From: Actinobacteria bacterium UBA7524 | GTDB taxonomy: Bacteria; Actinomycetota; Coriobacteriia; Anaerosomatales; UBA912 | Length of the DNA: 64,000 nt | NCBI GenBank assembly: GCA_002478275.1 | Contig: DLMY01000053.1 | Span: forward strand, 26,347 to 90,346 | Direction of reading: 5' to 3' | In this document: positions 9,715-39,589 of the stretch, piece by piece | Position numbering within the stretch: position 1 is the first letter of the stretch | Layout: each line of letters begins with the position of its first letter | Position numbers and translations under genes: made by a program | The notes under the pieces: generated by a model | Database searches by the model: none | What the model was told of the DNA's origin: nothing | The model's input: only the letters and a program-made list of their open reading frames with translations

Positions 9715-9823
9715 CCCTTCCGCGTGATAGAATCCTTCCAGCGTGTTTCCGCGACGGCCCTTGCCTGGGGCCGTCGGTCGTGTAGGGGGGCGTACCTGCG
9801 CCCGGACGGAGGGATCGATCGCG

Positions 9824-10759: not shown

Positions 10760-10763
10760 TCGC

Positions 10764-19917: not shown

Positions 19918-21611
19918 GGCTCGATGTGAAGACCCTTGCCGAGGAGCTCGAGCAGGAAGGCGTCCCTCACGCCATCGAGGGAGATGCGCTTCAGGCGCAC
20001 CTGACGGTCGAGCCCGAGGACCTCGCCGGCGCCGCAGAGGTGCTGGCCCGGTCGGAGCACGTGGCGGCTCTCAGTGACTTCTTCGCCAGCGACACAGGCG
20101 ACGGCGTGGAGTTGACGTACCGGCTGCGGCTCTCCGATCTCGCGTCTGACGTCTTGCTTCGCTGTGCCATGTCGTACAGCACGCCTCTTGAGTCGCTGTG
20201 GACGGCTTTTCCCGCGGTGCTGATGTGCGAGCGCGAGGTGGCGGAGTTGTTCGGATTGAGACTGTCAGAGCATCCCAATCCGGTGCGGCTGCTCACCATG
20301 GCCGGGGCTGAGCCCATGATGCGGCACTCCGTCGCGCTGAGACATGAGGACGACTACGCAGCCGGCGAGGAGCCCTGGCAGACCGAGACTGACGCAGCGA
20401 CGCCCGGTGTCGCGTCACGGGCCGGGCGCCGTGGCGTCTCGCTTGAGGGTAAGCGGAGTGAGCGTCCCCACCGTGCGGCACCGATCGGGCTCACGCACGT
20501 CCCGGCCGGCGCCGGCACGGGACACTCCAGACGAGGACTCATCCGTCTTGCTCCGAGGTTCGATCCGGGTAGCGACGCTCCGGGGTTGACGCTTCGAGTC
20601 GTCGGCGAGAGCGTCCTGGCGGCCGAGGCCGACATGGGCTTCGCCCACCGGGGGATCGAGAGACTCTCCCAGGAGCGTCACCTTATGGAGCTGGGCGGGT
20701 TGCTGGCTCGTTTGGACCGTTCGGCTTCGGTCCACGCGCAACATGCTGCGGCGTTGGCGATCGAGCGCACCGTGCACGTCGAGGCCTCACCCAAAGGCGC
20801 ATGGCTGCGCTGTCTGTATGCCGAGCTGGCCAGGGTCGCGGGCCACCTCGGATGGCTTCAGGGATTCGTGAGCGACGCCGGTCTTCGTTCGCTGTCGGAG
20901 AGGGCGGCCAGGAACCGACAGGCGTTCCTCGGCATCGGTGAGCAGCTTGCCGGTGATGCCGGTGCCGGGTATGTGCTGCCAGGGGGAGTGTCCGCGGACA
21001 TGCCAGCCGCGCTGGACTCCAGTATCACGGAGCTTTGCGATGCGTTCGAACCGGACCTGGAGAGAATCGGGAGGAAGGTGCTGGGCAGCGGGCTGCTCAG
21101 GCGCAGACTGCACGGGCTGGCTGCGTTCGGCGCGCAGACTGCACGTGCGCTGGCTGTGACCGGTCCGAGCCTGAGAGCCTGCGGCATGGTCTGTGACGTA
21201 CGCCGGGACATGCCGTACGACGCATACGCCGAACTTGAGTTCGAGGTGCCGATCGGTAGCGTCGGTGATGCATGGGACCGGATGTCGGTGCGGATCGAGG
21301 AGATGCGGCAGTCGGTCGCTATGATTCGCCAGCTTGTTGCCGGACTACCCGAGGGCGCGTGCCGTACTCAAGCCGACAGCCCCTGGCGCGCGAGTCCGGG
21401 TGAGGCGTACGCGGCGGTCGAATCGGGCCGGGGAGAGCTCGGGGTCCACCTGGTCACCACGGGCGCTCGGAAGCCGCAGCGAGTCCGACTCAGGACACCC
21501 TCGCTGTTCGCCTGCCAACTCGCCGAGGAGATCCTGCCGGGGACGGAGCTCTCTGACGTGTTCCTCGTTCTCGGCAGTCTCGACATCGGCCTCGGGGAGG
21601 CTGAACGGTGA
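19914..21611 (+). CDS. fused NuoC-NuoD-like subunit (49-kDa / large-subunit homolog) without NiFe ligands
   Basis: The N-terminal 30-kDa-type domain and the C-terminal GFAHRGIERL, GPSLRACGM.CDVRRDMPYDAY, GDAWDR..VRIEEM and GSLDIGLGEAER match NuoD signatures. TTG start overlaps the NuoB-like stop (TTGA). Confidence 0.8.
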   Translation: MRLDVKTLAEELEQEGVPHAIEGDALQAHLTVEPEDLAGAAEVLARSEHVAALSDFFASDTGDGVELTYRLRLSDLASDVLLRCAMSYSTPLESLWTAFPAVLMCEREVAELFGLRLSEHPNPVRLLTMAGAEPMMRHSVALRHEDDYAAGEEPWQTETDAATPGVASRAGRRGVSLEGKRSERPHRAAPIGLTHVPAGAGTGHSRRGLIRLAPRFDPGSDAPGLTLRVVGESVLAAEADMGFAHRGIERLSQERHLMELGGLLARLDRSASVHAQHAAALAIERTVHVEASPKGAWLRCLYAELARVAGHLGWLQGFVSDAGLRSLSERAARNRQAFLGIGEQLAGDAGAGYVLPGGVSADMPAALDSSITELCDAFEPDLERIGRKVLGSGLLRRRLHGLAAFGAQTARALAVTGPSLRACGMVCDVRRDMPYDAYAELEFEVPIGSVGDAWDRMSVRIEEMRQSVAMIRQLVAGLPEGACRTQADSPWRASPGEAYAAVESGRGELGVHLVTTGARKPQRVRLRTPSLFACQLAEEILPGTELSDVFLVLGSLDIGLGEAER

Positions 21612-22612
21612 GCGCCGCGATCGCCTCCGCGATATCTCGGGCCTTCTTGACCGTCGCCGTGCTCGCGGCCAACGCGTTCCTGATGGCTTCGCTCTCCCGG
21701 GTTTCCTCACGGGCGGACCGGGCGGGGTACGGGCGGGTCAGGTTCGAGCCGCTGCGGCCTGTCTGGGAAGGCATCCGGCTGGCGGGCAAGGAGCAGGGAG
21801 CTCCTTGGGGCATCGTGCGAGGAGTGGGAGCCGTGCCGGTGCTCGCCGCGCTGTTTCTGGTGCTTGTCGCCTTCGGAGTGGTGCCGTACTCGGCCACCCT
21901 CCGGGTCGTGCGAACGGACACTGCGGTCATCTACCTGCTCGGAGTCTTGGTGATGTCCGTGTTGTGGCCGTTCCTTGCGGGATGGGCGAACGGGGATAGC
22001 CTGGCGATCGTGACGGGAATGCGCATCACCGCTCGCAGGACCATGTTCGTATCCGCGCTGGTCCTCTCGGTCGTTCCCGTGGTCATGTATGCCGGCGGCT
22101 TCGACTCGACGGTCATAGTGTCCGCTCAGTCGGGCGTGTGGCTTCGCGTCGTCCCTCGCTGGTTCGCCACGTTCCCGATGTTCTGGCCCTCGTTGGCGGT
22201 CTTCACATCAGCGTCGGCGGTCGCGTACGGGGCGTCGCCGAATGGGGCGTTCGAGCGCTCTGTCGGTCTTGGAGACGAGTCTTCACTCGCGCCCACTCCG
22301 CTCCTTTGTGGAGTGCAGCGCCTTGTGGAGCATGCGTACCTCTTCATAGTGTCGGCACTGACCGTCATCCTGTTCTTCGGTGGCTGGACGGTGCCCAGAG
22401 TCTCCCTTGCGGGTGTCGCGCCTCTGGTCTTCCTGGTCAAGGTCTACGCATGGGCGACGGTGGTGATGTGGGTGCGCAGGAGGTTGCCTGCTCTGCGCCA
22501 GAGTGACCTGATGGCGTTGGGATGGAGATGGCTCGTCCCGTTGTCGTTCGTCTGGATAGTGGTGTGCGCCCTTCTGACGGGATTGTTCGACCTGGGTCAG
22601 GGGGTGAGCTGA
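21608..22612 (+). CDS. NuoH-like membrane subunit, divergent
   Basis: About 8 TM segments. GWANGDSLAIVTGMR (compare GWASNSKYALLGGLR) and WVRRRLPALRQSDLMALGWRWLVPLS (compare W.RAT.PR.R.DQLM..WK.LLPL). GTGA overlap with the upstream gene. Confidence 0.7.
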   Translation: MSAAIASAISRAFLTVAVLAANAFLMASLSRVSSRADRAGYGRVRFEPLRPVWEGIRLAGKEQGAPWGIVRGVGAVPVLAALFLVLVAFGVVPYSATLRVVRTDTAVIYLLGVLVMSVLWPFLAGWANGDSLAIVTGMRITARRTMFVSALVLSVVPVVMYAGGFDSTVIVSAQSGVWLRVVPRWFATFPMFWPSLAVFTSASAVAYGASPNGAFERSVGLGDESSLAPTPLLCGVQRLVEHAYLFIVSALTVILFFGGWTVPRVSLAGVAPLVFLVKVYAWATVVMWVRRRLPALRQSDLMALGWRWLVPLSFVWIVVCALLTGLFDLGQGVS

Positions 22613-22613
22613 C

Positions 22614-23114
22614 GTGTACGCTTCGGACCTCGCCTTCGCCGTCCTTGCACTCGCAGCACTTGGCGGTGCGGCCGGGGTGTTGCTTTCGAGGAGCACGGTG
22701 CATGCCGTGCTGTGGTCGTTGGAGTCGAGTGTGGCTGTAGCGGGTCTCTACGTGTTGCTGTCAGCGGAATTCCTCGCACTCGCCGTGGTGATTCTCTGGG
22801 GAGGTGCCGCCAGTCTGGCGTTGTTGGTCACCATCGCCGTGACAGCACGACACGGTGAGCCGGTGTCGCGTCCGCGCGAGGGGTCGTTGAGAGCAGCCGT
22901 ACTCGCGGTCGCGTTCGCGGCCCTTATGCTCGCGAGGATCGCGGGAGCGGATCTGGCCACCGCCGAAACGGCAGTGGCACCCCGTATGCGCGACCTCGGG
23001 GAGGCCCTGTTCGCGGAACCGGCGCTGATGGCCGCTTCAGGAGCTCTGTCCCTGATGCTTCTGCTCGTCATGATCGCGGGAGTCTGGTGGTCACGGGGAG
23101 GCGATGGGCGATGA
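22614..23114 (+). CDS. NuoJ-like membrane subunit
   Basis: RSTVHAVLWSL...AGLYVLLSAEFLALAVVILWGGA parallels RN.IH.AL.L...AG.YV.L.A.FL...QVIVYAGA of NuoJ/Nqo10. Confidence 0.65.
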   Translation: MYASDLAFAVLALAALGGAAGVLLSRSTVHAVLWSLESSVAVAGLYVLLSAEFLALAVVILWGGAASLALLVTIAVTARHGEPVSRPREGSLRAAVLAVAFAALMLARIAGADLATAETAVAPRMRDLGEALFAEPALMAASGALSLMLLLVMIAGVWWSRGGDGR

Positions 23115-23431
23115 GTGTGGGACCGGGCGCCTTTCTCGCGTTGGCTGCGGTGCTTTTCGCAGCTGGCCTCTATGGAGCGGTGGCCAGACGAGGACCTCTT
23201 GCGGTGTTGATGTCTCTTCAGATGATGGCGATCGCGGTGAATCTGAACATCGTGACCTTCACGCGGTTTGTCACACCGGCAGAGCAGGCCGGGAAGCTGC
23301 TGCCCGTGTTCTCCCTGACTGTCGCGGTGTTGCATCTCGGCCTGGGCGTGGCGCTCGTCTCAGGAGCCAGTCGACGTGCACGTTCTGTTCAGCGCGGGTC
23401 TGCCGGGCCTGCCGGGGCGGGTGAGCGATGA
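23111..23431 (+). CDS. NuoK-like membrane subunit with both canonical membrane glutamates substituted
   Basis: Aligned by eye to E. coli NuoK (RRN.LFMLIGLEIMINA / AAAEASIGLAL). Here the equivalents read RRGPLAVLMSLQMMAIA / VAVLHLGLGVAL. ATGA overlap. Confidence 0.65.
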   Translation: MSVGPGAFLALAAVLFAAGLYGAVARRGPLAVLMSLQMMAIAVNLNIVTFTRFVTPAEQAGKLLPVFSLTVAVLHLGLGVALVSGASRRARSVQRGSAGPAGAGER

Positions 23432-24861
23432 TGGGCGGCTTCACACAGTTCGTGCCCGAGGCGGCATTGCTCGTGCCTGTTCCCGTGGCGCTACTGCTGG
23501 GGTCACGCTTGCGCGAACGCTGGATCGCATGGCTGGCGATGATATCGTGCGGCGTCGCCGGTGTCAGCGCATGGTACGCGCCCACCATGCTGGACCAGGC
23601 GTCGGCGGTCACGACGACGCTCGATACCACGGCAGGCGCGGCACGGCTGGCCATCTGCGTACTCGCCGCATTGTGGCTCGCGTGGGTCGCGGCGCGCGGG
23701 GCAGGCGCGGAGCGGTCCGGAGAAGCGGTCGGGCTGGCGCTGCTCAGTACCCTCGGGGGCCTGCTTCTTGCGAGCGCCACGGACCTGGTCGTGGCCTTCG
23801 TGGCGATGGAGTTGACGGTTCTGCCCGCCTATGTGCTCCTCGGCTATTCGCGTCACGACGTCCCGGTCCTAAAAGGCGTGCTCAAGCAGATGACCCGTTC
23901 CGCGTTGGCCTCGATGATCGCCCTGTACGGCATATCGTTTCTCTACGGGTTGACGGGGGCCACATCGTTCGAGGGTATCGCCACATCGTTGCCGGAGGCC
24001 GGCCCGCTGGGTGCGACGGGGGCGATTCTGGCGGTCGGCGGACTTCTGGCACGCTTGACGTTGCTGTACCGGTGCGCATCGGCCCGTTCCGGGGTGGCCG
24101 GGTCATCCGTGTTCACAGCGTTCGTGGCGAGCGTTCCGGCATTCTCCATGAGCGTGTTCCTCGCGCAGTTCTTGTCGCAGGCACTCACGGTACGCTCGCT
24201 CCAGACGATACTCGTCGCGGGCGCCGTGTTCTGCCTGGCCGTCGGGCTGTACGTGATCGTGCGGGAGCAAGAGCCAAGAGAGTTGCTCGCCGGAGCGGGT
24301 ACAGTGCACATAGGGTTTCTCATGGCTGGCCTGGCTGTGCTGGTAGCGGCCTCACCCGGATCGTCCATCGACGCGGTTCCGGTGCAGGTGTCACAGCTGG
24401 CGGTGGTCGCGCCTCGGGTCGACGCGCTCGTCATCTACGCGTTCACCTACTCCATCGCCGCACTCGCGCTTGGGCTGCTTCTGGCGGGAACAGAAGGAGA
24501 GGGACCGCGGTACGGGCGTCGGCTCGCCATGCGCGCGGCTGCGGTGCTGCTGGCATCGCTTGCAGGTGTGCCTCCCCTGGCGGGCTTTGCAGGCAGATGG
24601 CTGTTGCTCAGATCCGTCCACGAGGCTGGTTTCGGCTGGCTCGTGGCCACAGGGGTCGCAGTAAGCATCGTCTCCGCTTGGTACGTCGTGCGAGCCGCCC
24701 TATCGCGCGCTGGCTCGGCCGAAGCACAGGCGACCGCCGAGGAGGAGCGCATCACCGGTAGCGGTCCGGGCGGATGGTTGTCGGAAGACCGCCTCTCGCT
24801 CTCCCTTGCGGTCTCTGCCGTACTCGTGGGTGGTGCGGTCCTCTGGGTCTTCTGGTTCTGA
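23428..24861 (+). CDS. single antiporter-like subunit (NuoN/NuoM/MrpD family, Proton_antipo_M), degenerate
   Basis: About 14 TM segments. The TM5-type AMELTVLPAYVLLGY motif is present. The TM7/8 region reads GGLLARLTLLYRCASARSG instead of ..K....PFH.W.PD. ATGA overlap with the NuoK-like gene. Confidence 0.65.
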   Translation: MMGGFTQFVPEAALLVPVPVALLLGSRLRERWIAWLAMISCGVAGVSAWYAPTMLDQASAVTTTLDTTAGAARLAICVLAALWLAWVAARGAGAERSGEAVGLALLSTLGGLLLASATDLVVAFVAMELTVLPAYVLLGYSRHDVPVLKGVLKQMTRSALASMIALYGISFLYGLTGATSFEGIATSLPEAGPLGATGAILAVGGLLARLTLLYRCASARSGVAGSSVFTAFVASVPAFSMSVFLAQFLSQALTVRSLQTILVAGAVFCLAVGLYVIVREQEPRELLAGAGTVHIGFLMAGLAVLVAASPGSSIDAVPVQVSQLAVVAPRVDALVIYAFTYSIAALALGLLLAGTEGEGPRYGRRLAMRAAAVLLASLAGVPPLAGFAGRWLLLRSVHEAGFGWLVATGVAVSIVSAWYVVRAALSRAGSAEAQATAEEERITGSGPGGWLSEDRLSLSLAVSAVLVGGAVLWVFWF

Positions 24862-31162: not shown

Positions 31163-32092
31163 ATGACGACGGTCGCCGTCCGGGTTCCGGCGAGCGCGGC
31201 CAATGTCGGGCCGGGCTACGACGCTTTCGGGCTCGCCCTCGGCATTCACAACAGGTTCCGGGCTTGTCCTGCCGAGGAGTGGCTTGTCGATGTCGCCGGC
31301 GAAGGGGAAGGCGACCTGGACACAGGCGCCGCCAATCAGGTCGCTTCTGCGATGGCGCAGGTGTTCGCGAGGATTCCGGGGGCTCCCCGTGCAGCGCACA
31401 TCGAGTGCGACAACAGGATCCCGCAGGGCAAGGGGCTCGGGTCGTCGGCCGCAGCGATCGTCGGCGGGCTTGTGTTGGGCGATGCGCTCTGTGGCGCAGG
31501 TCTCGACCGGCAGACCTTGTTCGAGATGGCAGTCGACATCGAAGGCCACCCCGACAACGTCGCCGCCGCACTGTTCGGCGGCTTCACGATCGGCTGGAGG
31601 CGTAGCGGCCGTGCCCGGGCCACATCACTGCCGATCGCCGGTGGGCTGGCGGCAGTGGTGGCGCTCACGCACGAACCGCTCTCCACGAGCCGTTCCCGTG
31701 ACCTGCTTCCGGAGTCGGTGCCGCATGCAGACGCAGCGTTCAACTCGGCCCGCGCAGGACTCCTCACATCGGGGCTCACTCTGGGCAGATCCGATCTGCT
31801 CGCCGAAGGACTGGCTGATTGCCTGCATGAGCGGTATCGTGCAAGCGCTATACCTGATATCGAAGAAGTGGTAGCGGTCCTCACAGATGCCGGTGCGATA
31901 GGGGCGGTCTTGTCAGGAGCCGGTCCCGCCGTGATCGGTCTGGTCGGCGGGGAAACCGATGACGAGGCGTATCGGAGGGCACAGGAGATCGCTCTGCGTG
32001 CCACCGGGCGCATCGCGGGCATGCCCGGTCGCCTGGGGCCGCTGGCGCTGAGGATCGATCAGGAGGGAACAGTCCTGGAAGGGGAGAGATGA
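31163..32092 (+). CDS. thrB: homoserine kinase
   Basis: VPASAANVGPGYDAFGLAL and the GHMP motif PQGKGLGSSAAA. Confidence 0.9.
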   Translation: MTTVAVRVPASAANVGPGYDAFGLALGIHNRFRACPAEEWLVDVAGEGEGDLDTGAANQVASAMAQVFARIPGAPRAAHIECDNRIPQGKGLGSSAAAIVGGLVLGDALCGAGLDRQTLFEMAVDIEGHPDNVAAALFGGFTIGWRRSGRARATSLPIAGGLAAVVALTHEPLSTSRSRDLLPESVPHADAAFNSARAGLLTSGLTLGRSDLLAEGLADCLHERYRASAIPDIEEVVAVLTDAGAIGAVLSGAGPAVIGLVGGETDDEAYRRAQEIALRATGRIAGMPGRLGPLALRIDQEGTVLEGER

Positions 32093-32697
32093 GCGAGCTT
32101 TCGAAGACCAAGCCTGTCTGGTACGTCGCAGCCGCTGCCGTGGTGTTGACGGCCGCGGTGTTGATATGGATGTTCGCCGGTGGCGGAGTCGACGTGCTGA
32201 AGGATGCCACTGGTACACAGACCTCCGCCGAGGAGACCGCAACGATCAGGCCTCCTGGTTCTCGTGGTCCCGTTGCGAGCCGCCCGCCGGGCTCGCCGGG
32301 GTCTGCTCCTGAAGAGAACATCGCGCCGCCAGAAGCCTCCAACAGCCCGGCGGCCACCGGCGAGAAGCTCATGATGCTCTCCAAGGCGCCCGAGCGGTCG
32401 TTGTGGACGCTCTCTGCTGACTCCTACGACGCAGGTGCCACGGCTTCGATCGGGTTCATGCCCTATGGCTTCGGACCGGGCGACTACGGCAAGAGCATCT
32501 CGGTCAAGATCACTTCTTCGACACCGGACCTGAGCGCGGGTGCACGCTTCCCGGACCTGCTCGGACGCAGCGTCGTCCTGATCCTGGATGACAACGACAT
32601 CGATACCGGCGGGGCCTATTCCGGCACTGTGGTCACACGAGCAGAGGGCGACAGACTCGTCCTGGTGCTCCAGAGCGTCGAGCCGCTCAGCGACTGA
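32089..32697 (+). CDS. hypothetical membrane-anchored exported protein
   Basis: ATGA overlap with thrB. N-terminal TM helix, a Pro/Ser-rich linker, and a beta-rich C-terminal domain. Confidence 0.45.
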   Translation: MSELSKTKPVWYVAAAAVVLTAAVLIWMFAGGGVDVLKDATGTQTSAEETATIRPPGSRGPVASRPPGSPGSAPEENIAPPEASNSPAATGEKLMMLSKAPERSLWTLSADSYDAGATASIGFMPYGFGPGDYGKSISVKITSSTPDLSAGARFPDLLGRSVVLILDDNDIDTGGAYSGTVVTRAEGDRLVLVLQSVEPLSD

Positions 32698-32800
32698 GTG
32701 CGGCCCTGACCCGCGGTTGACCTCAATACCCCAGGTCGGGGATGATACTGCTACCGCACCCGCCCGTCGTGTCGCGACGGCCTATCCGCGGAGGAACCCA

Positions 32801-33823
32801 GTGGACTATCAGGACCCAAGCAGCGGTCTCGGCACGACCCCGACCGGTGCACCCGCGATCGATCACCCCGTGACCGTTCCGCCGGCACCGCCCGCGCGTT
32901 CGAGCAGCGCCTGGAAGTGGTTCTGGGGTGTCATGGCTGTGTTGTTCCTTGCGATCATGGCGTGTTGCGGTCTCATGACAGTCGCTGCGATACCATCGCT
33001 GGACACGCCTTCGTTCGTCACCAGCGACAGCATCGCGCTCATCCATGTCGACGGCGTCATCGCGGGCACTGGCAGCGATTTCGACGGCGTCATCACCCCT
33101 GAAGCGATGCTGGACAAGCTCGACCGCGCGTTGAGCGACCCGGGTGTCAAGGCCATCCTGCTTCGGATCGATTCACCCGGCGGGACTGTCGCCGCGTCAC
33201 AGGAGATCGCGATCGAGGTCGCCAGGGCTGCCGAACGGAAGCCTGTCGTGGCCAGCATCGGCGACGTCGGCGCGAGCGGTGCGTACATGATCGCCTCGCA
33301 GTGTGACGAGATCGTGGCCGCGCCGACCTCGGCGGTCGGCAGCATCGGGGTGATCACCCAGATCCCCAACGTCGCGGGTCTTCTCGACAAGCTGGGTATC
33401 GAGTTCACAGTACTCACGGCCGGAGAGTACAAGGACGCAGGCAGCCCGTTCCGTTCGATGACTTCCACCGAGACGGCCATGATCCAGACCGAGGTGGATA
33501 TCGCCTACGACGAGTTCATCCGCATCGTCGCAGAAGGCAGGGAGCTGCCCGAAGCGGAGGTGCGTGAGATGGCAACCGGGTTCGCATGGTCAGCGCTCGT
33601 CGCCAAGGACATGGGCCTCGTCGACACGCTCGGCACGTTCAACGATGCGATCGATCGGGCGGCCGAACTCGGGGGAATCGACGGCGAACCGGGTATCGTC
33701 ACCTATGAGGACGACAGTTACGGTATGCTGCTGCGCTTCCTGCTGGGTGCGACCTCCCGCCTTGACCGGCTTGAAGCGATCACGAACGCGCTTATCGGAC
33801 CCGCACCCGCCGTTCCCAGGTAG
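32801..33823 (+). CDS. sppA: signal peptide peptidase SppA (S49 family, 36K type)
   Basis: ILLRIDSPGGTVAASQEI, GDVGASGAYMIA and SIGV motifs. GTG at 32801 after GGAGGAA. Confidence 0.85.
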   Translation: MDYQDPSSGLGTTPTGAPAIDHPVTVPPAPPARSSSAWKWFWGVMAVLFLAIMACCGLMTVAAIPSLDTPSFVTSDSIALIHVDGVIAGTGSDFDGVITPEAMLDKLDRALSDPGVKAILLRIDSPGGTVAASQEIAIEVARAAERKPVVASIGDVGASGAYMIASQCDEIVAAPTSAVGSIGVITQIPNVAGLLDKLGIEFTVLTAGEYKDAGSPFRSMTSTETAMIQTEVDIAYDEFIRIVAEGRELPEAEVREMATGFAWSALVAKDMGLVDTLGTFNDAIDRAAELGGIDGEPGIVTYEDDSYGMLLRFLLGATSRLDRLEAITNALIGPAPAVPR

Positions 33824-33843
33824 TCTGGATCTCCGGAGGACCG

Positions 33844-34689
33844 ATGCCCTCGCAAGACGTGATCCGCATCGCGCACATCTCCGACCTGCACTGCGGGTCG
33901 CGTTACCACATCCCTTCGCTGGCGACGCGCGTCATCGACGAGCTCAACGAGCTCGGACCCGAGATCGTGGTCGTGACAGGTGACCTGACCGACATGGGCT
34001 TCCGTCAGGAGTTCAAGCAGGCGCACAGGCTCCTGGAGCGCCTGGAGTGTCAGGAGCGGATGGTTCTCCTCGGCAATCATGATGCGCGTAACGTGGGGGA
34101 CGAGCATTTCGCGGAGTATTTCGGGGCTCGCAGCAAAGAGCTTCTCCACGGGTGCGTGCGTCTGGTCGGGATCGACTCGAGCGAGCCGGACCTCGACTCG
34201 GGCCGTGTGGGCCGGAACCGTTACCGCTGGATCGAGGAGCGCTTCAGCGAGCCCGACGAGTTCAAGGTCCTGGCGATGCATCACCACCTCGTGCCGGTGC
34301 CCGGAACCGGGCGCGAGCGCAACATCGTCTTCGACGCGGGCGACATGCTGCGCGTGCTCGCAGGTTGCGGGACCGATGTCGTGCTGTGCGGCCACAAGCA
34401 CGTTCCCAACGTCTGGCGTCTTGAAGACATGCTGATCGTGAACGCGGGCACCGCGTGTTCGCATCGCCTCCGTGGCCGCGTGCGGCCCTGCTACAACATC
34501 ATCGAGGTGATCGGCGGTTCGCGCGTACGCGTCCTGCTCAAGGAACCCTACGTCGATCCCGAGGTGGTGGCGGACTTCCACGAGGTTCATCGCCGCTACT
34601 GCAAGTGGCGTCCCGACAGCGAGCCGGACACGATGGAAGAGACCGGTTACGAGCCCGCACGATCTTCCGCCAAGGAGACCGCATCATGA
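33844..34689 (+). CDS. calcineurin-like metallophosphoesterase
   Basis: ISDLHCG, VTGDLTD, GNHD, HHHL and CGHKH motifs. Confidence 0.85.
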   Translation: MPSQDVIRIAHISDLHCGSRYHIPSLATRVIDELNELGPEIVVVTGDLTDMGFRQEFKQAHRLLERLECQERMVLLGNHDARNVGDEHFAEYFGARSKELLHGCVRLVGIDSSEPDLDSGRVGRNRYRWIEERFSEPDEFKVLAMHHHLVPVPGTGRERNIVFDAGDMLRVLAGCGTDVVLCGHKHVPNVWRLEDMLIVNAGTACSHRLRGRVRPCYNIIEVIGGSRVRVLLKEPYVDPEVVADFHEVHRRYCKWRPDSEPDTMEETGYEPARSSAKETAS

Positions 34690-36032
34690 CACGTGTCGTC
34701 GCGCTCATCGACGGGGAACACTACCCGCCGGTCGTCCGGTTCGCCCTTGCGAGCCTTTCGCATGAGTATCAGGTCGATGCCGCCGTGTTCATCGGAGGCA
34801 CCGAGAAGGTCGACCTCGAGCGCGGGCTCGATACCTACGGCGTGCCGGTCGTCACCGCCGGGACGCCCGAGCAGGCGATACGCGACGCGATCGAGCGCTA
34901 CGAGCCCAACGCGCTCGTGGACCTCTCCGACGAGCCGGTCGTCTCGAGTGCAGACCGCTTCAGGCTCGCAAGCGTCGCGCTGTCGCTTGGCGTGGACTAC
35001 CGGGGCGCCGACTTCTCTTTCACGCCGCCTCGTGCGCGCCTGACGACCGCCACCCCGGCGCTCGGGCTGATCGGTACCGGTAAGCGCGTGGGCAAGACCG
35101 CGATATCGGGTTACGTGGCGCGGGCGCTGACCGAGGCCGGGCGCGACATCTGTGTGCTCGCGATGGGACGCGGCGGGCCTGCGGAGCCCGAGCTCATCCA
35201 TGGCGAGAAGGTCAAGCTGACCACCGCCGACCTGCTCGAGCTGGCCCGTCAGGGCAAGCACGCGAGCAGCGACAACTACGAAGACGCGGTGATGAGCCGT
35301 GTGACCACCGTCGGCTGCCGCCGTTGTGGCGGCGGTATGGCTGGCGAGACCTTCTTCTCCAACGTACCCGAAGGCGCCCGCCTGGCCGATTCTCTGGGCA
35401 AGGAGCTCGTGATACTCGAGGGCTCCGGCGCTGCGATCCCTCCCGCACATGCCGACGCGAACATCCTGGTGATCGGCGCGGGCAGGGGTGTGAGCTACGT
35501 GCGCGACTACTTCGGCCCGTACCGCCTGGGACTCGCCGATCTCGTCATCATCGCAACCGCCGAGGAACCCGTCGCCTCTCCTGCAGACGTAGCGGAGATC
35601 CGCCGGGCGGTCGACGAGCTGGCGCCCGGCATGCCGTGTATCGCCACCACGTTCCGGCCGTGTCCGGTCGAGCCGGTGGAGGGCAGGAGGGTGTTCTTCG
35701 CCACCACCGCTCCGGCCGAGGTGCTTCCGAAACTCGCACAGCACCTTGAGGAAGCGTACCGCTGCACGGTAGTGGGCACGAGTCCGCACCTCTCGAACCG
35801 CGCCAGGCTGCGCGAGGACATGGCGGCGGCTCATGGCGAGTACGACCTGCTTCTGACCGAGCTCAAAGCGGCTGCCATCGACGTTGTGGCTCAGGTGGGT
35901 GACGAGACAGGGATTCCCACGGTCATGTGCGACAACGTCCCCATCCCGCTCGATGCCGGAGTCGATCTTTCCTCGGCGGTCGTGGAAGCGGCCGGGAAAG
36001 CGATCGAACGCGGCATGGCAAGGAGAACCTGA
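34686..36032 (+). CDS. cpgS: cyclic 2,3-diphosphoglycerate synthetase-like P-loop protein
   Basis: The N-terminal VALIDGEHYPPV motif, P-loop GTGKRVGKTA and a length of about 448 aa match my recollection of the archaeal CPGS family. ATGA overlap with the upstream gene. Confidence 0.6.
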   Translation: MTRVVALIDGEHYPPVVRFALASLSHEYQVDAAVFIGGTEKVDLERGLDTYGVPVVTAGTPEQAIRDAIERYEPNALVDLSDEPVVSSADRFRLASVALSLGVDYRGADFSFTPPRARLTTATPALGLIGTGKRVGKTAISGYVARALTEAGRDICVLAMGRGGPAEPELIHGEKVKLTTADLLELARQGKHASSDNYEDAVMSRVTTVGCRRCGGGMAGETFFSNVPEGARLADSLGKELVILEGSGAAIPPAHADANILVIGAGRGVSYVRDYFGPYRLGLADLVIIATAEEPVASPADVAEIRRAVDELAPGMPCIATTFRPCPVEPVEGRRVFFATTAPAEVLPKLAQHLEEAYRCTVVGTSPHLSNRARLREDMAAAHGEYDLLLTELKAAAIDVVAQVGDETGIPTVMCDNVPIPLDAGVDLSSAVVEAAGKAIERGMARRT

Positions 36033-36033
36033 A

Positions 36034-36963
36034 TTGAGCTCCGAGATCCCCAGGCAGATCATCATCTCCGACAAGCGGCACGGGCTCCCGTTCTCTAAAG
36101 GGTTGCTGGCGCAGTCGTTCATGGCCACCGGTCTGGGGCCGGGGCGGGCGTACGAGATCGCCGCAGCCATCCAGAACGACCTTCGAGAGGCCGAGGAGTA
36201 CTCGATCACCGTGAAGCGTCTTCGCACGCTGGCCAAGGAGTACCTCGAGCGGATAGCGGGCGAGCAGTACGCGGTCCGCTACGAGCGGCTGCACGAGGTC
36301 TCGAAGCTCGACAAACCGCTCATCGTCATGCTCGGCGGGACGACGGGGGTCGGCAAGTCGACGATCGCTACGGAAGTGGCTCACCGGTTGGGTATCACGA
36401 GAATCGTTTCCACGGATTCCATTCGGGAGGTCATGCGTGGTATCTTTAGCAAAGACCTCATGCCCGCGATCTACGAAAGTGCGTTCAACGCATGGCGAGG
36501 TCTCCGAGTCCCGGTGCCGCACGGCGCAAACCCTGTGATCGTCGGATTCCGCGAGCAGACGGCTGTCGTGACCACAGGTGTGCAGGCGCTGATCGACCGC
36601 TCGGTACTCGAGGGGGACAGCCTGGTCCTCGAAGGCATCCACCTCGTGCCCGGATATATCGAACCGCGGCAGTTCAAGAATGCGCGGGTCGTGCAGCTTG
36701 TCATCACCGTGGATGACGAAGACGCTCATCGGAGCCACTTCTATATCCGAGAGGTCCAGACCGACGGCATGCGCCCGTTCGAGCGTTACCGGTCGAACTT
36801 CGGCAACATCCGCCTGCTCGGTCATTACATAGAGGACCTGGCCCGCGAACACGGGACCCCCGTGCTCACGAGCCATCAGCTGGACCTGACCGTGTCAGAC
36901 GTACTCGAGCACATAGTGGACGCGGCCATGCAAGAGGACATGGATACAGGCTGCGAGGCCTGA
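36034..36963 (+). CDS. 2-phosphoglycerate kinase-like protein (ATP-cone-like N-terminus plus P-loop kinase)
   Basis: TTG start 8 nt after AGGAGA. GLPFSKGLLAQS, LGGTTGVGKSTIATEVAHRLGI..IVSTDSIREVMR and LEGIHLVPG are typical of COG2074 2PGK. Confidence 0.6.
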   Translation: MSSEIPRQIIISDKRHGLPFSKGLLAQSFMATGLGPGRAYEIAAAIQNDLREAEEYSITVKRLRTLAKEYLERIAGEQYAVRYERLHEVSKLDKPLIVMLGGTTGVGKSTIATEVAHRLGITRIVSTDSIREVMRGIFSKDLMPAIYESAFNAWRGLRVPVPHGANPVIVGFREQTAVVTTGVQALIDRSVLEGDSLVLEGIHLVPGYIEPRQFKNARVVQLVITVDDEDAHRSHFYIREVQTDGMRPFERYRSNFGNIRLLGHYIEDLAREHGTPVLTSHQLDLTVSDVLEHIVDAAMQEDMDTGCEA

Positions 36964-36999
36964 ACCGAGTCCCGGGACGCAACAAGGAGGCAATCGCAG

Positions 37000-37662
37000 G
37001 TGAAGTTCTTTCTGGATACCGCCAACATCTCTGAGATCGAAGAGGCCGCCAGTTGGGGTGTGCTCTCGGGGGTCACGACGAACCCGACGCTGTACGCCCG
37101 GGAGGGCGGCAGACTCGCCGATTTCCACGACCACATAGTCAGGATCTGTGAGATCGTCGACGGACCCGTCTCGGCCGAGACGGTCTCGCTCAAGCGCGAC
37201 GAGATCGTTGCCGAGGGCGTCGAGCTGGCAGCGCTCCATCCCAACGTGGTCGTCAAGGTGCCCACCATGCCTGAGGGGCTCGCAGCGACCAAGGCGCTGT
37301 TCGAGAAGGGCATCAAGGTCAACATGACGCTGTGCTTCACGGTGCCCCAGGCGCTGCTCGCGGCCCGGTCGGGCGCGGCGTTCATCTCTCCGTTCATCGG
37401 GCGTTTCGATGACATCTCGGAAGATGGCTCCGAGCATCTGGCCAACGTGGTACATGCACTGGACAACTACGACTTCGGCCACAAGGTCGAGGTCATCGCG
37501 GCCTCGGTCCGGCACCCGGAACACGTGCTGCAGGCGGCGCTGATCGGCGCCGACATCGCCACGGTACCGATGGCGACCCTGGAGAAGTGCGTGAAGCACC
37601 CGCTGACCGACCGCGGACTCGAATCGTTCCTCGCCGACTGGGAGAAGGTCAAGAACTCATGA
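37000..37662 (+). CDS. tal: transaldolase (type 3B) / fructose-6-phosphate aldolase
   Basis: KFFLDTANISEI, VTTNPTL, the KVP (Schiff-base Lys) and SPFIGR motifs. 220 aa. Confidence 0.9.
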   Translation: MKFFLDTANISEIEEAASWGVLSGVTTNPTLYAREGGRLADFHDHIVRICEIVDGPVSAETVSLKRDEIVAEGVELAALHPNVVVKVPTMPEGLAATKALFEKGIKVNMTLCFTVPQALLAARSGAAFISPFIGRFDDISEDGSEHLANVVHALDNYDFGHKVEVIAASVRHPEHVLQAALIGADIATVPMATLEKCVKHPLTDRGLESFLADWEKVKNS

Positions 37663-39014
37663 GCGCAAGACCCCGCAAACGTGGACGCCGTGGTGGTGGC
37701 GGACAGCACGACGCACCACCCAAGCCTTCCGTCACCCGCCCCGATCTCGAGGCCAAGACGGTAGCCGAGCTCAAGGAGATGGCGACCGAGCTCGCCCTCG
37801 ACCTCAAGGTGCTGAAGAAGAAAGACGAGCTGATCGATGCGGTGCTCGAGGCCAAGGTCAAGGCCGAAGGCTTCATCGAGATCAGTGGCATCCTCGACAT
37901 ACTGCCGGAAGGCTATGGGTTCATCCGCACGAGCGGGTACCTGCCCGGCGACCGCGACGTCTACTGCTCGATGTCGCAGATCCGCAAGTTCGACCTGCGC
38001 CGGGGGGACAAGATCGTCGGCCAGGTGCGCCCGCCCAAAGACAACGAGAAGTACTCCGCTTTGCAGCGGGTCGACACCGTCAATGAGGTGACGATCGACC
38101 AGGCCCGCGGCCGCAAGCGGTTCGGCGACCTGACGCCGGTCTATCCGGACCAGCGTCTGCGCCTGGAGCACGGCGCCGACCACATCACCGCACGGGTCAT
38201 GGATCTCGTGGCTCCGATCGGCAAGGGCCAGCGCGGTCTGATCGTCTCCCCGCCGAGAGCGGGCAAGACCACCGTCCTGAAGGACATCGCCGCGTCCATC
38301 ACGGCGAACGACCCGGACGTCTACCTCATGTGCCTGCTCGTCGACGAGCGTCCCGAGGAAGTCACAGACATGGAGCGTTCGATCCATGGGGAAGTGGTCT
38401 CCTCGACGTTCGACATGCCCAGCGAGAACCACATCGCGGTGGCCGAGCTCGTGATGGAGCGTGCCAAGCGCCTGGTGGAGACCGGCTACGACGTGGTCAT
38501 CCTGCTCGACTCGATCACGCGTCTCGCCAGGGCGTACAACCTTGCCACTCCCGCATCCGGCCGCATCCTTTCCGGCGGCGTGGACTCCACGGCGCTGTAC
38601 CCGCCCAAGAAGTTCTTCGGTGCCGCGCGAAACATCGAGAACGGCGGTTCGCTCACCATCCTTGCGACTGCTCTGGTCGAGACCGGCTCGAAGATGGACG
38701 AGGTCATCTTCGAGGAGTTCAAGGGCACCGGCAACATGGAGCTGCGCCTGGATCGTTCGCTCGCGGATCGCCGCATCTTCCCGGCCATCGACGTCATCAC
38801 CTCCGGTACGCGCAAAGAGGAGCTGCTGCTCGAACCGGTCGAGGCGCCGTTCGTGTGGGGCCTGCGTCGCATCCTTCACGGAGTGGACTCCGCGGAACGT
38901 GCGATGGACATGCTGATCAAGGGTCTCAAGCAGACCAGCAGTAACCAGGAGTTCCTCTCCAAGATGGCCAAGCGCGCAGAAGACAAGCGGCACACCAACG
39001 GGATCGACCTCTAG
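37659..39014 (+). CDS. rho: transcription termination factor Rho
   Basis: Arg/Gly-rich N-terminus, the RNA-binding GFIR segment, and Walker A PPRAGKT. ATGA overlap with tal. Confidence 0.93.
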   Translation: MSARPRKRGRRGGGGQHDAPPKPSVTRPDLEAKTVAELKEMATELALDLKVLKKKDELIDAVLEAKVKAEGFIEISGILDILPEGYGFIRTSGYLPGDRDVYCSMSQIRKFDLRRGDKIVGQVRPPKDNEKYSALQRVDTVNEVTIDQARGRKRFGDLTPVYPDQRLRLEHGADHITARVMDLVAPIGKGQRGLIVSPPRAGKTTVLKDIAASITANDPDVYLMCLLVDERPEEVTDMERSIHGEVVSSTFDMPSENHIAVAELVMERAKRLVETGYDVVILLDSITRLARAYNLATPASGRILSGGVDSTALYPPKKFFGAARNIENGGSLTILATALVETGSKMDEVIFEEFKGTGNMELRLDRSLADRRIFPAIDVITSGTRKEELLLEPVEAPFVWGLRRILHGVDSAERAMDMLIKGLKQTSSNQEFLSKMAKRAEDKRHTNGIDL

Positions 39015-39100
39015 TCGCGGTCCCGACCGCGTGCTATCCTACTGCGGCTGTCTGCGCTCGGTCGGAAACCGAGCGCGCGTGATGAAAGAGGTGACCGTTC

Positions 39101-39589
39101 GTGCGTCAGGGAATCCATCCCGACTACGTCGAGGCAAACGTGCACTGCTCGTGCGGTAACACGTTCAAGACCCGCTCGACCAAGTCGGACCTTCATATCG
39201 AGTTGTGTTCCGCGTGCCACCCGTTCTACACGGGCAAGCAGAAGTTCGTCGACACCGGTGGTCGTGTGCAGCGCTTCTCCGACAAGTTCGGCAACGCCGC
39301 GACCAGCGTGCTCGAGCGCGAGGCCGCCGAGCGCGAGGCGCGCCAGAAGGCCGCTGAAGAAGCCGCCGAGGAGACTCGCAAGGCCCGCGAGGCCAAGGAG
39401 TCCGAGCGCGCAGCTCGCGCCGCCAAGTTCGAGACCAAGGCGGCCGTGGAGTCGGGCGAGGCGAAGGCGGATGTCGTCGAGGTACCGGCCGAGGAGGCCG
39501 CTGTCGAGGACGCCGCCGTCGAGGACGCCCCCGAAGCGGCAGAGGCGCCCGGGACCGAGGCCGTAGCCGAGGAGACCACGGAAGCGTAG
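39101..39589 (+). CDS. rpmE: 50S ribosomal protein L31 (Zn-ribbon type) with a C-terminal Ala/Glu-rich extension of about 90 aa
   Basis: GIHPDY...CSCG...[21 protein letters not shown] is canonical L31. The remaining 90 aa are low-complexity. Confidence 0.9.

What the first reader, a model, noticed from the sequence alone, without database searches (positions are those of the whole stretch)
33844..36963. Bacterial operon resembling the archaeal cyclic 2,3-diphosphoglycerate (cDPG) thermoprotectant pathway, coupled to a metallophosphoesterase
Three coupled genes (ATGA overlap at 34686; a 1-nt gap and TTG start at 36034) encode a calcineurin-like metallophosphoesterase, a 448-aa P-loop protein, and a P-loop kinase. 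The P-loop protein has an N-terminus (VALIDGEHYPPV) and a GTGKRVGKT motif that match my memory of cyclic 2,3-diphosphoglycerate synthetase. The kinase has the hallmarks of 2-phosphoglycerate kinase (GLPFSKG..., GGTTGVGKST, VSTDSIREVMR). To my knowledge 2PGK plus cDPGS have been characterised biochemically only in (hyper)thermophilic methanogens such as Methanothermus, Methanopyrus and Methanothermobacter, where cDPG is a thermostabilising solute and phosphate/energy store. Finding both genes as an operon in a high-GC bacterium suggests horizontal acquisition and bacterial cDPG synthesis. The co-transcribed phosphoesterase is a candidate for the genetically unassigned cDPG hydrolase. Other archaeal-flavoured enzymes in the window (atPEPC, two-subunit fumarase) fit the theme.
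Basis: partly seen in the sequence, partly recalled or inferred. Interest (0 to 1): 0.7.

Follow-up and report, generated by a model that had tools for sequence, protein, structure and literature searches.

The report
Bacterial cDPG operon with candidate hydrolase
An uncultured Coriobacteriia-type bacterium carries, fused into one tightly coupled gene trio, the two enzymes that archaea use to make the phosphate-rich solute cyclic 2,3-diphosphoglycerate plus a metal-dependent phosphoesterase that travels with them in several phyla and is the best available candidate for the never-identified enzyme that breaks the solute down.

Summary
Three + strand genes are translationally coupled: a metallophosphoesterase (MPE, 33844-34689), a cDPG synthetase homologue (34686-36032, ATGA overlap) and a 2-phosphoglycerate-kinase-family protein (36034-36963, TTG start after a 1-nt gap).

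The 448-aa protein is 47% identical over its full length to the crystallised Methanothermus fervidus cDPGS (E 1e-129). It keeps all 11 mappable substrate, Mg and ATP ligand residues. The kinase matches the 2PGK model end to end (E 2e-92) but scores just below NCBI's curated cut-off.

The trio sits in housekeeping synteny at native GC. It is conserved in 74 of 79 evaluable related Coriobacteriia/Actinomycetota genomes, so it is old there, not a recent import from methanogens.

A specific MPE homologue lies beside cDPGS in 37 of 47 evaluable non-Methanobacteriales metagenome loci. These include a different gene order (cDPGS-2PGK-CBS-double MPE) in Cloacimonadota-like bacteria and Thermococcales. 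It is never found beside cDPGS in Methanobacteriales.

Databases already name these bacterial genes. No paper found reports bacterial cDPG or links an MPE to it. Best reading: a cDPG make-and-break module, with the hydrolase role inferred and not shown.

The parts
33835..33839 (+). Shine-Dalgarno-like GGAGG upstream of the MPE start
   Evidence: Read directly from the sequence; it lies 5 nt before the ATG at 33844.
33844..34689 (+). Calcineurin-like metallophosphoesterase (281 aa); candidate cDPG or 2,3-DPG hydrolase. Soluble, with a disordered C-terminal tail (residues 247-281).
   Evidence: Pfam Metallophos scores 68 bits against a cut-off of 21.5. The closest solved relatives are Rv0805 and GpdQ, by sequence (E 1e-10) and by fold (TM 0.66-0.73, about 20% identity). 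The metal-ligand motifs D14/H16, D47, N78-H79, H146-148 and H184/H186 are invariant in 107 homologues. So are the family-specific R82, GRER (156-159), G166-D167 and R210. A homologue lies next to cDPGS in 74 of 79 evaluable genome loci and in 37 of 47 evaluable non-Methanobacteriales metagenome loci.
34672..34677 (+). Shine-Dalgarno-like AAGGAG inside the end of the MPE gene, serving the cDPGS start
   Evidence: Read from the sequence. The ATGA start/stop overlap is at 34686-34689. The same 4-nt overlap occurs in 50 of 66 related loci.
34686..36032 (+). Cyclic 2,3-diphosphoglycerate synthetase homologue (448 aa; CpgS)
   Evidence: E 1.1e-129 to M. fervidus cDPGS (8ORK/8ORU), aligning residues 3-441, and 2.8e-111 to 9SXB. 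Identity is 47%. E40, K41, K133, R134, K137, T138, D196, E293, T341, E392 and K394 match the ligand residues of the crystal complex (PMC10690619). The precomputed Pfam family is PF27272 CpgS_N.
36020..36025 (+). Shine-Dalgarno-like AAGGAG inside the end of the cDPGS gene, serving the TTG start of the kinase
   Evidence: Read from the sequence. The cDPGS stop is at 36030-36032, followed by one base, then the TTG at 36034.
36034..36963 (+). 2-phosphoglycerate-kinase-family P-loop kinase (309 aa, TTG start)
   Evidence: NCBIfam NF003259 '2-phosphoglycerate kinase' gives E 2.1e-92 and 309.8 bits against a cut-off of 343, aligning residues 7-301 to model positions 4-295 of 306. The cDPGS-linked kinases of other bacteria score 295-313, and those of Thermococcales 401-407. 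A homologue lies directly downstream of cDPGS in every related genome locus that reaches that far.

Best explanation
The three genes form a cDPG 'make-and-break' module in an anaerobic Coriobacteriia-type actinobacterium.

Proposed steps:
1. The kinase phosphorylates 2-phosphoglycerate to 2,3-diphosphoglycerate. This is inferred from family membership and from its invariable coupling to cDPGS.
2. The cDPGS homologue uses ATP to close 2,3-DPG into the cyclic pyrophosphate cDPG. This is inferred from 47% identity to the crystallised enzyme and an intact active site.
3. The upstream binuclear metallophosphoesterase returns the compound to metabolism. Most likely it hydrolyses the cyclic phosphoanhydride (cDPG to 2,3-DPG). 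Alternatively it dephosphorylates 2,3-DPG. This is inferred only from conserved gene linkage and from the chemistry of the superfamily.

Synthesis and breakdown encoded together resembles the ppk-ppx logic of polyphosphate. This argues for a turned-over phosphate, energy or carbon reserve and anionic solute, not a static thermoprotectant.

The module is ancient in this lineage and sits in core synteny (sppA | MPE-cpgS-2pgk | tal-rho).

My probabilities:
- The locus confers cDPG synthesis: about 0.8.
- The MPE acts in cDPG/2,3-DPG metabolism: about 0.7.
- The MPE is specifically the ring-opening cDPG hydrolase: about 0.4.
For: cDPGS:
- Full-length match to the solved enzyme.
- All 11 mappable ligand residues are conserved.

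Kinase:
- Collinear 2PGK-model match at E 2e-92.
- It scores like the other cDPGS-linked bacterial kinases.

Coupling:
- An ATGA overlap and a 1-nt gap in the window.
- The overlap is conserved in 56 of 66 loci and the cDPGS/2PGK junction in 67 of 67.

Synteny:
- MPE-cDPGS-2PGK-TAL occurs in 74 of 79 evaluable species-level genomes.
- It also occurs in much more divergent contigs: L085, with cDPGS 49% identical, and L087, 44%.

Independent architecture:
- cDPGS-2PGK-CBS-double MPE occurs in a Cloacimonadota MAG (L086) and in related loci L089-L092 and L126 of unassigned taxonomy.
- The window MPE is 33% identical (E 2e-41) to the first domain of the double MPE.
- The same order occurs in Thermococcales (L133).
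- In P. yayanosii the pair is separated from cDPGS/2PGK only by a cas gene cluster (PMC4890121).

Survey:
- 37 of 47 evaluable non-Methanobacteriales cDPGS loci have the MPE within 3 kb.

MPE family:
- It conserves four arginines beyond the metal ligands.

Precedent (from my own knowledge):
- Metallophosphoesterases such as LpxH/LpxG, ApaH and ADPRibase-Mn cleave P1,P2-diesterified pyrophosphates.

Literature:
- A cDPG hydrolase activity exists in M. thermautotrophicus with no gene cited (Roberts 2005, PMC1224877).
- No paper found links an MPE to cDPGS.
Against: - No biochemical data exist for any bacterial member.
- The kinase scores below NCBI's curated equivalog cut-off (309.8 against 343).
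- The 2PGK superfamily includes enzymes with other substrates, such as mevalonate-3-phosphate 5-kinase.
- Five related genomes keep cDPGS-2PGK but have cleanly lost the MPE, so it is dispensable.
- The double-MPE homologue of Desulfurobacterium lies next to an ABC transporter with no cDPGS within 6 kb, so the family is not exclusive to cDPGS loci.
- Methanobacteriales, the classical cDPG producers, have no MPE or 2PGK near cDPGS (0 of 25 loci, 14 of them fully evaluable).
- Their described hydrolase is membrane-bound, whereas this MPE is soluble.
- The nearest characterised structural relatives (GpdQ, Rv0805) are phosphodiesterases, only about 20% identical. Substrate cannot be read from homology.
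- Whether the conserved arginines line the active site was not determined.
Confidence: 0.6

Rival explanations
1. The synthesis genes are genuine, but the MPE is a 2,3-DPG phosphatase (2,3-DPG to 2-PG or 3-PG plus phosphate), or a broader phosphoglycerate-ester phosphatase, and not the cDPG ring-opening hydrolase. Ring opening would then be done by the reversible synthetase or by another enzyme.
For: - The same linkage data apply as for the main explanation.
- Purple acid phosphatases, which are monoesterases, are among the structural neighbours.
- GpdQ-type enzymes are promiscuous (my own knowledge).
- M. fervidus cDPGS is reported to be reversible (PMC1224877).
Against: - In five loci the MPE stays with cDPGS when no 2PGK is nearby (L120, L154-156, L158). 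This ties it to the cyclase step more than to 2,3-DPG supply.
- The top sequence and fold relatives are diesterases.
Confidence: 0.25
2. The MPE is functionally unrelated to cDPG, for example a class III cyclic-nucleotide phosphodiesterase or a general phosphodiesterase. It would sit there only through inherited gene order.
For: - Best PDB sequence hits are Rv0805/Icc.
- JGI names some double-MPE homologues 'CpdA'.
- Five relatives lost the MPE without losing cDPGS-2PGK.
- A homologue in Desulfurobacterium is not next to cDPGS.
Against: - Linkage recurs in a different gene order and in unrelated phyla and a different domain.
- Translational coupling is conserved in 56 of 66 loci.
- The CpdA equivalog model scores 31 bits against a cut-off of 225.
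- The MPE is as conserved as cDPGS itself across divergent loci: 47-57% identity where cDPGS is 36-55%.
Confidence: 0.12
3. The two P-loop enzymes act on other substrates. The synthetase homologue might be an arginine-synthetase-like (ArcE) paralogue or make another cyclic pyrophosphate, so no cDPG is made.
For: - ArcE (TK2200) is a distant homologue of cDPGS and is widespread in bacteria (PMC11032458).
- The local Pfam and NCBIfam copies returned no family for the 448-aa protein.
- The kinase is below the curated cut-off.
Against: - 47% full-length identity to the biochemically and structurally characterised cDPGS, with every 2,3-DPG, Mg and ATP ligand conserved. ArcE similarity is described as 'low'.
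- The partner kinase belongs to the 2PGK family.
- In other lineages cDPGS is fused in operons with phosphoglycerate mutases (L084, L085). This fits a phosphoglycerate substrate.
Confidence: 0.08
4. One reading: a recent horizontal import from thermophilic methanogens, serving as a thermoprotectant.
For: - The patchy distribution across Bacteria and Archaea implies transfer at some time.
- An amino-acid-composition estimate gives an optimal growth temperature near 53 C for the window's proteins (formula from memory, rough).
- One cultured member of the order grows up to 77 C (PMC9686372).
Against: - GC is flat across the locus.
- The flanks are housekeeping genes.
- The same insertion site is used in 79 genomes and in contigs with only 44-49% cDPGS identity.
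- The Coriobacteriia clade is monophyletic (100% bootstrap) and roughly equidistant (39-49% identity) from all other lineages. It is not nested in Methanobacteriales.
- Relatives come from soil, peat, groundwater and sediment MAGs, and Anaerosoma tenue is mesophilic.
Confidence: 0.08

Closest known systems
Cyclic 2,3-diphosphoglycerate synthetase of Methanothermus fervidus (PDB 8ORK/8ORU; De Rose et al. 2023, PMC10690619) and the Thermococcales enzyme 9SXB
   Same: - Full-length collinear homology, including the unique N-terminal domain.
- The Walker A motif GTGKRVGKT.
- All mapped 2,3-DPG, Mg and ATP ligand residues.
- Similar length (448 against 460 aa).
   Different: - Only 47% identical.
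- High-GC bacterial host.
- Arg-rich instead of Lys-rich composition.
- Translationally coupled on both sides to an MPE and a 2PGK. In Methanothermobacter the gene stands apart from both.
2-phosphoglycerate kinase (COG2074; NCBIfam NF003259; M. fervidus enzyme, Lehmacher & Hensel 1994 as cited in PMC4890121)
   Same: - End-to-end match to the family model.
- The P-loop GGTTGVGKST.
- An N-terminal roughly 90-residue regulatory-type domain, recognised as ATP-cone in the Thermococcus homologue.
   Different: - Scores 309.8, below the 343-bit equivalog cut-off, as do all bacterial cDPGS-linked homologues tested.
- ATP-cone is not detected by Pfam in the window protein.
GpdQ glycerophosphodiesterase (Enterobacter aerogenes) and Rv0805/CpdA class III cyclic-nucleotide phosphodiesterases
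   Same: - The same binuclear metallophosphoesterase fold with a C-terminal beta cap (TM 0.66-0.73).
- The same metal-ligand motifs.
   Different: - About 20% identity.
- The CpdA model scores far below its cut-off.
- It has its own invariant GRER loop and extra arginines.
- Its genomic partner is cDPGS, not glycerophosphodiester or cAMP genes.
Membrane-bound cDPG hydrolase activity of Methanothermobacter thermautotrophicus (van Alebeek 1994; Sastry 1992; cited in PMC1224877)
   Same: It is the reaction proposed here (cDPG to 2,3-DPG). The activity has no gene assigned in the literature I could search.
   Different: - That activity is membrane-bound and inhibited by K+ and phosphate.
- The window MPE has no membrane segment.
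- No homologue lies near cDPGS in Methanobacteriales. This would be an analogous enzyme, not necessarily an orthologous one.
Arginine synthetase ArcE (TK2200; Michimori et al. 2024, PMC11032458)
   Same: A distantly related P-loop synthetase family, ADP-forming, and widespread in bacteria.
   Different: - It is described as having only low similarity to cDPGS.
- The window protein is far closer to cDPGS and is partnered with a 2PGK, not with arcB/arcC.
ppk-ppx type storage operons (polyphosphate kinase with exopolyphosphatase)
   Same: The logic of encoding the synthesis and hydrolysis of a phosphoanhydride reserve in one operon.
   Different: The proteins and the compound are unrelated. The analogy is functional only.

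Membership tests
cDPG synthetase (CpgS; Pfam PF27272 CpgS_N) | Full-length homology to the characterised enzyme, including the unique roughly 127-aa N-terminal domain | tested here: met
   phmmer E 1.1e-129, aligning residues 3-441 to 6-454 of 8ORK. Precomputed PF27272 is assigned to the window protein. The local Pfam and NCBIfam copies lack a model.
cDPG synthetase (CpgS; Pfam PF27272 CpgS_N) | Walker A motif GxxGxGK[T/S] and the ligand residues of the ADP/Mg/2,3-DPG complex (E45, K46, K145, R146, K149, T150, D208, E305, T353, E404, K406) | tested here: met
   All 11 are identical in the pairwise alignment, using the residue list from PMC10690619. The paper's 'P335' is F335 in the deposited sequence, and F323 in the window.
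cDPG synthetase (CpgS; Pfam PF27272 CpgS_N) | Separation from the paralogous arginine synthetase (ArcE) family | not tested
   No ArcE sequence was available to compare. The evidence is indirect: 47% identity to cDPGS against the 'low' similarity reported for ArcE, and a 2PGK partner.
cDPG synthetase (CpgS; Pfam PF27272 CpgS_N) | Catalysis of 2,3-DPG + ATP to cDPG + ADP + Pi | not testable with these tools
   Needs an enzyme assay.
2-phosphoglycerate kinase (NCBIfam NF003259 / COG2074) | End-to-end homology to the family model, with a P-loop | tested here: met
   E 2.1e-92, residues 7-301 to model positions 4-295 of 306; GGTTGVGKST is present.
2-phosphoglycerate kinase (NCBIfam NF003259 / COG2074) | Score at or above NCBI's curated equivalog cut-off (343 bits) | tested here: not met
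   309.8 bits. Other bacterial cDPGS-linked kinases score 294.5-312.8, and Thermococcales 401-407.
2-phosphoglycerate kinase (NCBIfam NF003259 / COG2074) | Functional pairing with cDPGS | tested here: met
   It lies directly downstream of cDPGS in all related genome loci that extend far enough, with the junction at -11 to +1 nt in 67 of 67. The same pairing occurs in Thermococcales.
Calcineurin-like metallophosphoesterase (Pfam PF00149) | Pfam gathering score and the five metal-ligand motifs | tested here: met
   68 bits against 21.5. D14/H16, G46-D47, G77-N78-H79, H146-148 and G183-H184-x-H186 are invariant in 107 homologues.
Class III cyclic-nucleotide phosphodiesterase (CpdA/Rv0805; NF008359) | Score at or above the curated equivalog cut-off | tested here: not met
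   31 bits against 225. About 20% identity to Rv0805 in the fold alignment.
cDPG hydrolase (activity described in M. thermautotrophicus; no sequence family) | Membrane association | tested here: not met
   By my inspection of the translation there is no long hydrophobic segment, and the longest helix in the model is 14 residues. No TM or signal-peptide predictor was run. The archaeal activity is membrane-bound (PMC1224877).
cDPG hydrolase (activity described in M. thermautotrophicus; no sequence family) | Hydrolysis of cDPG to 2,3-DPG | not testable with these tools
   Only gene-neighbourhood evidence is available.

The most novel reading that the evidence does not exclude
This MPE subfamily, in its single-domain and tandem-domain forms, is the missing cDPG hydrolase. 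If so, cDPG is not a curiosity of hot methanogens. It would be a widespread, actively cycled phosphoanhydride reserve (phosphate, energy and carbon) in anaerobic Actinomycetota, Cloacimonadota-like bacteria and Thermococcales. Nucleotide-sensing modules would switch it: the stand-alone CBS protein in the second gene order, and the ATP-cone-like N-terminus of the kinase.
Probability: 0.35. Interest if true: 0.75.

Novelty: new variant of a known kind. Interest (0 to 1): 0.6.

Why it matters
Papers as recent as 2023-2025 still describe cDPG as confined to hyperthermophilic methanogens. Its degradation enzyme has had no gene since the activity was described in the early 1990s.

This locus and its relatives show that the synthetic pair is a stable, core-genome feature of a large clade of subsurface and sediment Actinomycetota and of other bacteria.

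They also single out one conserved, soluble, easily expressed metallophosphoesterase family as a testable candidate for the breakdown step. cDPG can now be made enzymatically (PMC12136491), and two members of the order are in culture. Both the bacterial occurrence and the hydrolase assignment can therefore be tested directly.

A confirmed hydrolase would also matter for biotechnological cDPG production, since host degradation could then be controlled.

Tried and rejected
- **No family for the 448-aa protein.** The local Pfam and NCBIfam copies returned nothing. This is a library-date gap, not evidence against cDPGS. The PDB sequence search resolved it.
- **Promoter and terminator scan.** It was uninformative: one promoter-like site, at chance level, and no terminators.
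- **Wasted literature searches.** Two were lost because 'cpgS' matched 'CpGs'. Two early searches failed on the comma in the compound name.
- **Tree.** The NJ tree does not resolve deep nodes (support below 40%), so I draw no conclusion on the direction of transfer.
- **Methanobacteriales orthologue of the MPE elsewhere in the genome.** Only about 8 kb either side of cDPGS was checked.
- **ArcE.** No direct comparison was possible because no sequence was at hand.
- **Structure prediction.** It placed the MPE in the GpdQ/Rv0805 fold group but gave no substrate information.
- **Cultured isolates.** I could not check whether Anaerosoma or Parvivirga carry the operon. Only MAGs labelled Anaerosomatales were seen (L017, L055).
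- **Fumarase.** The beta subunit was not found.

Full report
**1.

On the + strand, a 281-aa ORF runs from 33844 to 34689. Its TGA (34687-34689) overlaps the ATG (34686-34688) of a 448-aa ORF ending at 36032. One base later, a TTG at 36034 opens a 309-aa ORF ending at 36963.

Each start has a GGAGG or AAGGAG element 5-9 nt upstream.

GC content is flat across the region: 0.65-0.67 against a window range of 0.62-0.68.

**2. What the three proteins are**

The middle protein found no family in the local Pfam and NCBIfam copies. It does match the solved cDPG synthetase of Methanothermus fervidus at E 1.1e-129 over residues 3-441, and a second solved cDPGS (9SXB) at 2.8e-111. 9SXB proved to be a Thermococcales-type enzyme.

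The crystal-structure paper lists the residues that hold 2,3-DPG, Mg2+ and ADP (PMC10690619). In a pairwise alignment (47% identity), all 11 mappable residues are identical in the window protein. The collection's precomputed annotation is Pfam PF27272, CpgS_N.

The downstream protein matches NCBIfam's '2-phosphoglycerate kinase' model from end to end (E 2.1e-92). It scores 309.8 bits against a curated cut-off of 343. Kinases linked to cDPGS in other bacteria score 295-313, and those of Thermococcales 401-407. It is therefore a clear family member but fails the curated equivalog threshold.

The upstream protein is a calcineurin-like metallophosphoesterase (Pfam 68 bits) with all metal-ligand motifs. 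Its nearest solved relatives, by sequence and by predicted fold, are Rv0805 and the glycerophosphodiesterase GpdQ, at about 20% identity and TM 0.66-0.73. The CpdA equivalog model scores far below its cut-off.

**3. Context and age**

The neighbours, all on the + strand, are hom, thrB, a 202-aa unknown, sppA, then the trio, then tal/fsa, rho, rpmE, thyX and DUF1385. No terminator-like sites lie in 32000-39200.

A scan of one genome per species returned 80 loci. All are Coriobacteriia or Actinomycetota MAGs, some labelled Anaerosomatales, with cDPGS 58-81% identical.
- The MPE lies directly upstream of cDPGS in 74 of 79 evaluable loci.
- 2PGK and tal lie downstream in every locus that reaches that far.
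- Five loci have sppA abutting cDPGS, a clean loss of the MPE.
- The 4-nt or 1-nt MPE/cDPGS overlap recurs in 56 of 66 measured loci.
- The cDPGS/2PGK junction is within -11 to +1 nt in 67 of 67.

Two far more divergent contigs have the same order and flanks: L085 (cDPGS 49% identical) and L087 (44%). The module is therefore old and vertically kept in this lineage. It is not an island.

**4. Distribution and phylogeny**

The family is modest in size, with about 213 clusters at 50% identity below E 1e-30. It is scattered across:
- Methanobacteriales, including mesophilic Methanobacterium and Methanobrevibacter
- Thermococcales
- Asgard archaea
- Candidatus Bipolaricaulota
- Cloacimonadota
- several Actinomycetota lineages

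NCBI and JGI already name the bacterial proteins '(cyclic) 2,3-diphosphoglycerate synthetase'.

A bootstrapped NJ tree gives 100% support to the Coriobacteriia clade and to Methanobacteriales. Support is below 40% for every deep node. The window protein is 39-49% identical to all other lineages. Transfer between domains must have occurred at some time, but neither its direction nor a methanogen donor can be inferred.

**5. The phosphoesterase link, which is the main new point**

I conditioned on cDPGS and surveyed 80 metagenome loci chosen to be diverse.
- All 25 Methanobacteriales-type loci lack both an MPE homologue and a 2PGK within the flanks. A Methanothermobacter genome locus shows the same.
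- Of the 55 other loci, 37 have a homologue of the window MPE within 3 kb, 10 evaluable loci have none, and 8 are too short to judge.
- Thirty of the 37 have the window's order, MPE-cDPGS(-2PGK-tal).
- The other seven have the MPE downstream. Six of them (L089-L092, L126, L133) show a second order, cDPGS-2PGK-CBS-double MPE. In L122 the MPE lies downstream on the opposite strand with no CBS gene.

The second order also occurs in a Cloacimonadota MAG (L086). There the tandem MPE's first domain is 33% identical to the window MPE at E 2e-41. It also occurs in L133, which is Thermococcales, because its double MPE is 87% identical to that of Thermococcus sp. EP1.

In Pyrococcus yayanosii the CBS-double MPE pair sits just beyond a cas1-cas2-cas4-cas3 block. 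A published study places that block next to the cDPG genes PYCH_14390-400 (PMC4890121).

Across 107 homologues, the metal ligands are invariant. So are R82, a GRER loop (156-159), G166-D167 and R210. Most of these also hold in 44 double-MPE proteins.

There are counter-examples. Five Coriobacteriia lost the MPE. T. paralvinellae has cDPGS-2PGK next to a mannosylglycerate-synthase-like gene, with no adjacent MPE. Bipolaricaulota pair cDPGS with iPGM instead. A Desulfurobacterium double MPE follows an ABC transporter with no cDPGS nearby.

**6. Mechanism**

Shown:
- homology
- intact active-site residues
- conserved coupling and linkage

Inferred:
- 2-PG is phosphorylated to 2,3-DPG by the kinase.
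- 2,3-DPG is cyclised with ATP to cDPG by the synthetase.
- The MPE hydrolyses either the cyclic phosphoanhydride or a phosphate of 2,3-DPG.

Metallophosphoesterases are known to cleave diesterified pyrophosphates (LpxH/LpxG, ApaH, ADPRibase-Mn; from my own knowledge).

The literature records a cDPG hydrolase activity in M. thermautotrophicus. It is membrane-bound and inhibited by K+ and phosphate, and no gene is given (PMC1224877). The window MPE is soluble and absent from Methanobacteriales neighbourhoods. It would therefore be an analogous enzyme.

Encoding synthesis and breakdown together suggests a regulated reserve, not a static thermoprotectant. So do the CBS protein of the second gene order and the ATP-cone recognised in the Thermococcus kinase.

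Habitat data point the same way. Relatives come from soil, peat, groundwater and sediment MAGs. The two cultured members of the order span 14-42 C and 25-77 C (PMC9686372). A crude composition-based estimate for the window's proteins is about 53 C (formula recalled from Zeldovich et al. 2007, large error). Thermophily of this particular organism is therefore not excluded.

**7. Known or new**

No paper in the searchable library reports cDPG or its genes in bacteria. None links a metallophosphoesterase to cDPGS. The paper describing the cultured relatives does not mention diphosphoglycerate.

Recent papers state that cDPG is exclusive to hyperthermophilic methanogens (PMC10690619; PMC12136491). 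On the other hand, automated annotation already names the bacterial genes.

One paralogous family must be kept in mind: arginine synthetase ArcE (PMC11032458). I could not compare it directly. The window protein's closeness to true cDPGS and its 2PGK partner argue strongly against that assignment.

**8. Verdict**

The gene identities and the hydrolase idea are supported. The 'recent archaeal import / thermoprotectant' framing is not.

The synthetic pair is a new member of a known kind. The conserved three-gene module with a dedicated MPE is a new variant that makes the unassigned degradation step testable.

Noticed in passing
L086 4260-10232; L089-L092, L126, L133: A second conserved gene order, cDPGS-2PGK-CBS-tandem double metallophosphoesterase (about 500 aa), occurs in a Cloacimonadota MAG (L086), in related metagenome contigs of unassigned taxonomy, and in Thermococcales. 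L086 also has a 5'-nucleotidase-type MPE upstream of cDPGS.
   Followed up: partly
L171 880-7512 (Pyrococcus yayanosii CP002779.1): A cas1-cas2-cas4-cas3 block lies immediately upstream of the CBS-double MPE pair. A published study places the cDPGS/2PGK genes just beyond the cas block. The cas genes may therefore have been inserted into a former cDPGS-2PGK-CBS-MPE cluster.
   Followed up: partly
L084 2120-8908 and L172 2175-7452: The same type of ABC transporter occurs in two places. It has an SBP_bac_1/11 binding protein, a fused permease of about 560-573 aa, and an ATPase with TOBE_2. In a Bipolaricaulota contig it precedes cDPGS-iPGM. In Desulfurobacterium atlanticum it precedes the double MPE. 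It may take up a phosphorylated compound related to this pathway.
   Followed up: no
L169 5467-9171 (MAG labelled Thermococcus paralvinellae): cDPGS-2PGK lies directly after a mannosylglycerate-synthase-like glycosyltransferase (PF21969). Two compatible-solute pathways are therefore side by side. Pfam recognises the kinase's N-terminus there as an ATP-cone.
   Followed up: no
L003, L005, L006, L007, L029: Five close relatives (69-78% cDPGS identity) have sppA abutting cDPGS with no MPE gene. This is a clean lineage-specific loss of the phosphoesterase with cDPGS-2PGK retained.
   Followed up: partly
   Followed up: yes
window 9743-11603 (+): Malate/lactate dehydrogenase (9743-10759) is followed by a class I fumarate hydratase alpha-type ORF (Pfam Fumerase, E 2e-89; the match starts near 10788). 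No separate beta subunit (Fumerase_C) was found in the ORFs scanned. The next ORF (11593-13065) is an MFS transporter.
   Followed up: partly
window 19914-24861 (+): There is a fused NuoC-NuoD-like protein, a NuoH-like protein and an antiporter-like subunit. This suggests a membrane-bound energy-converting hydrogenase or complex-I-like module. A CobW/HypB/UreG-type GTPase lies at 5025-5861.
   Followed up: no
window 1-64000: Nearly every confirmed gene is on the + strand; the chemoreceptor at 16836-18920 is the exception. Cumulative GC skew rises steadily, as expected for a leading-strand housekeeping region. An F-type ATP synthase cluster lies at about 49.3-56.2 kb.
   Followed up: no
window 32089-32697 (+): A 202-aa ORF between thrB and sppA has no Pfam family and a hydrophobic N-terminus. 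The longest sppA ORF (from 32588) overlaps it, so the true sppA start is probably further downstream.
   Followed up: no
window, 41 confirmed or long ORFs: The IVYWREL amino-acid fraction is 0.414, giving a rough optimal growth temperature estimate of about 53 C. The high GC content may inflate it. The window cDPGS is Arg-rich (7.6% R, 2.2% K), whereas the M. fervidus enzyme is Lys-rich (9.1% K).
   Followed up: partly
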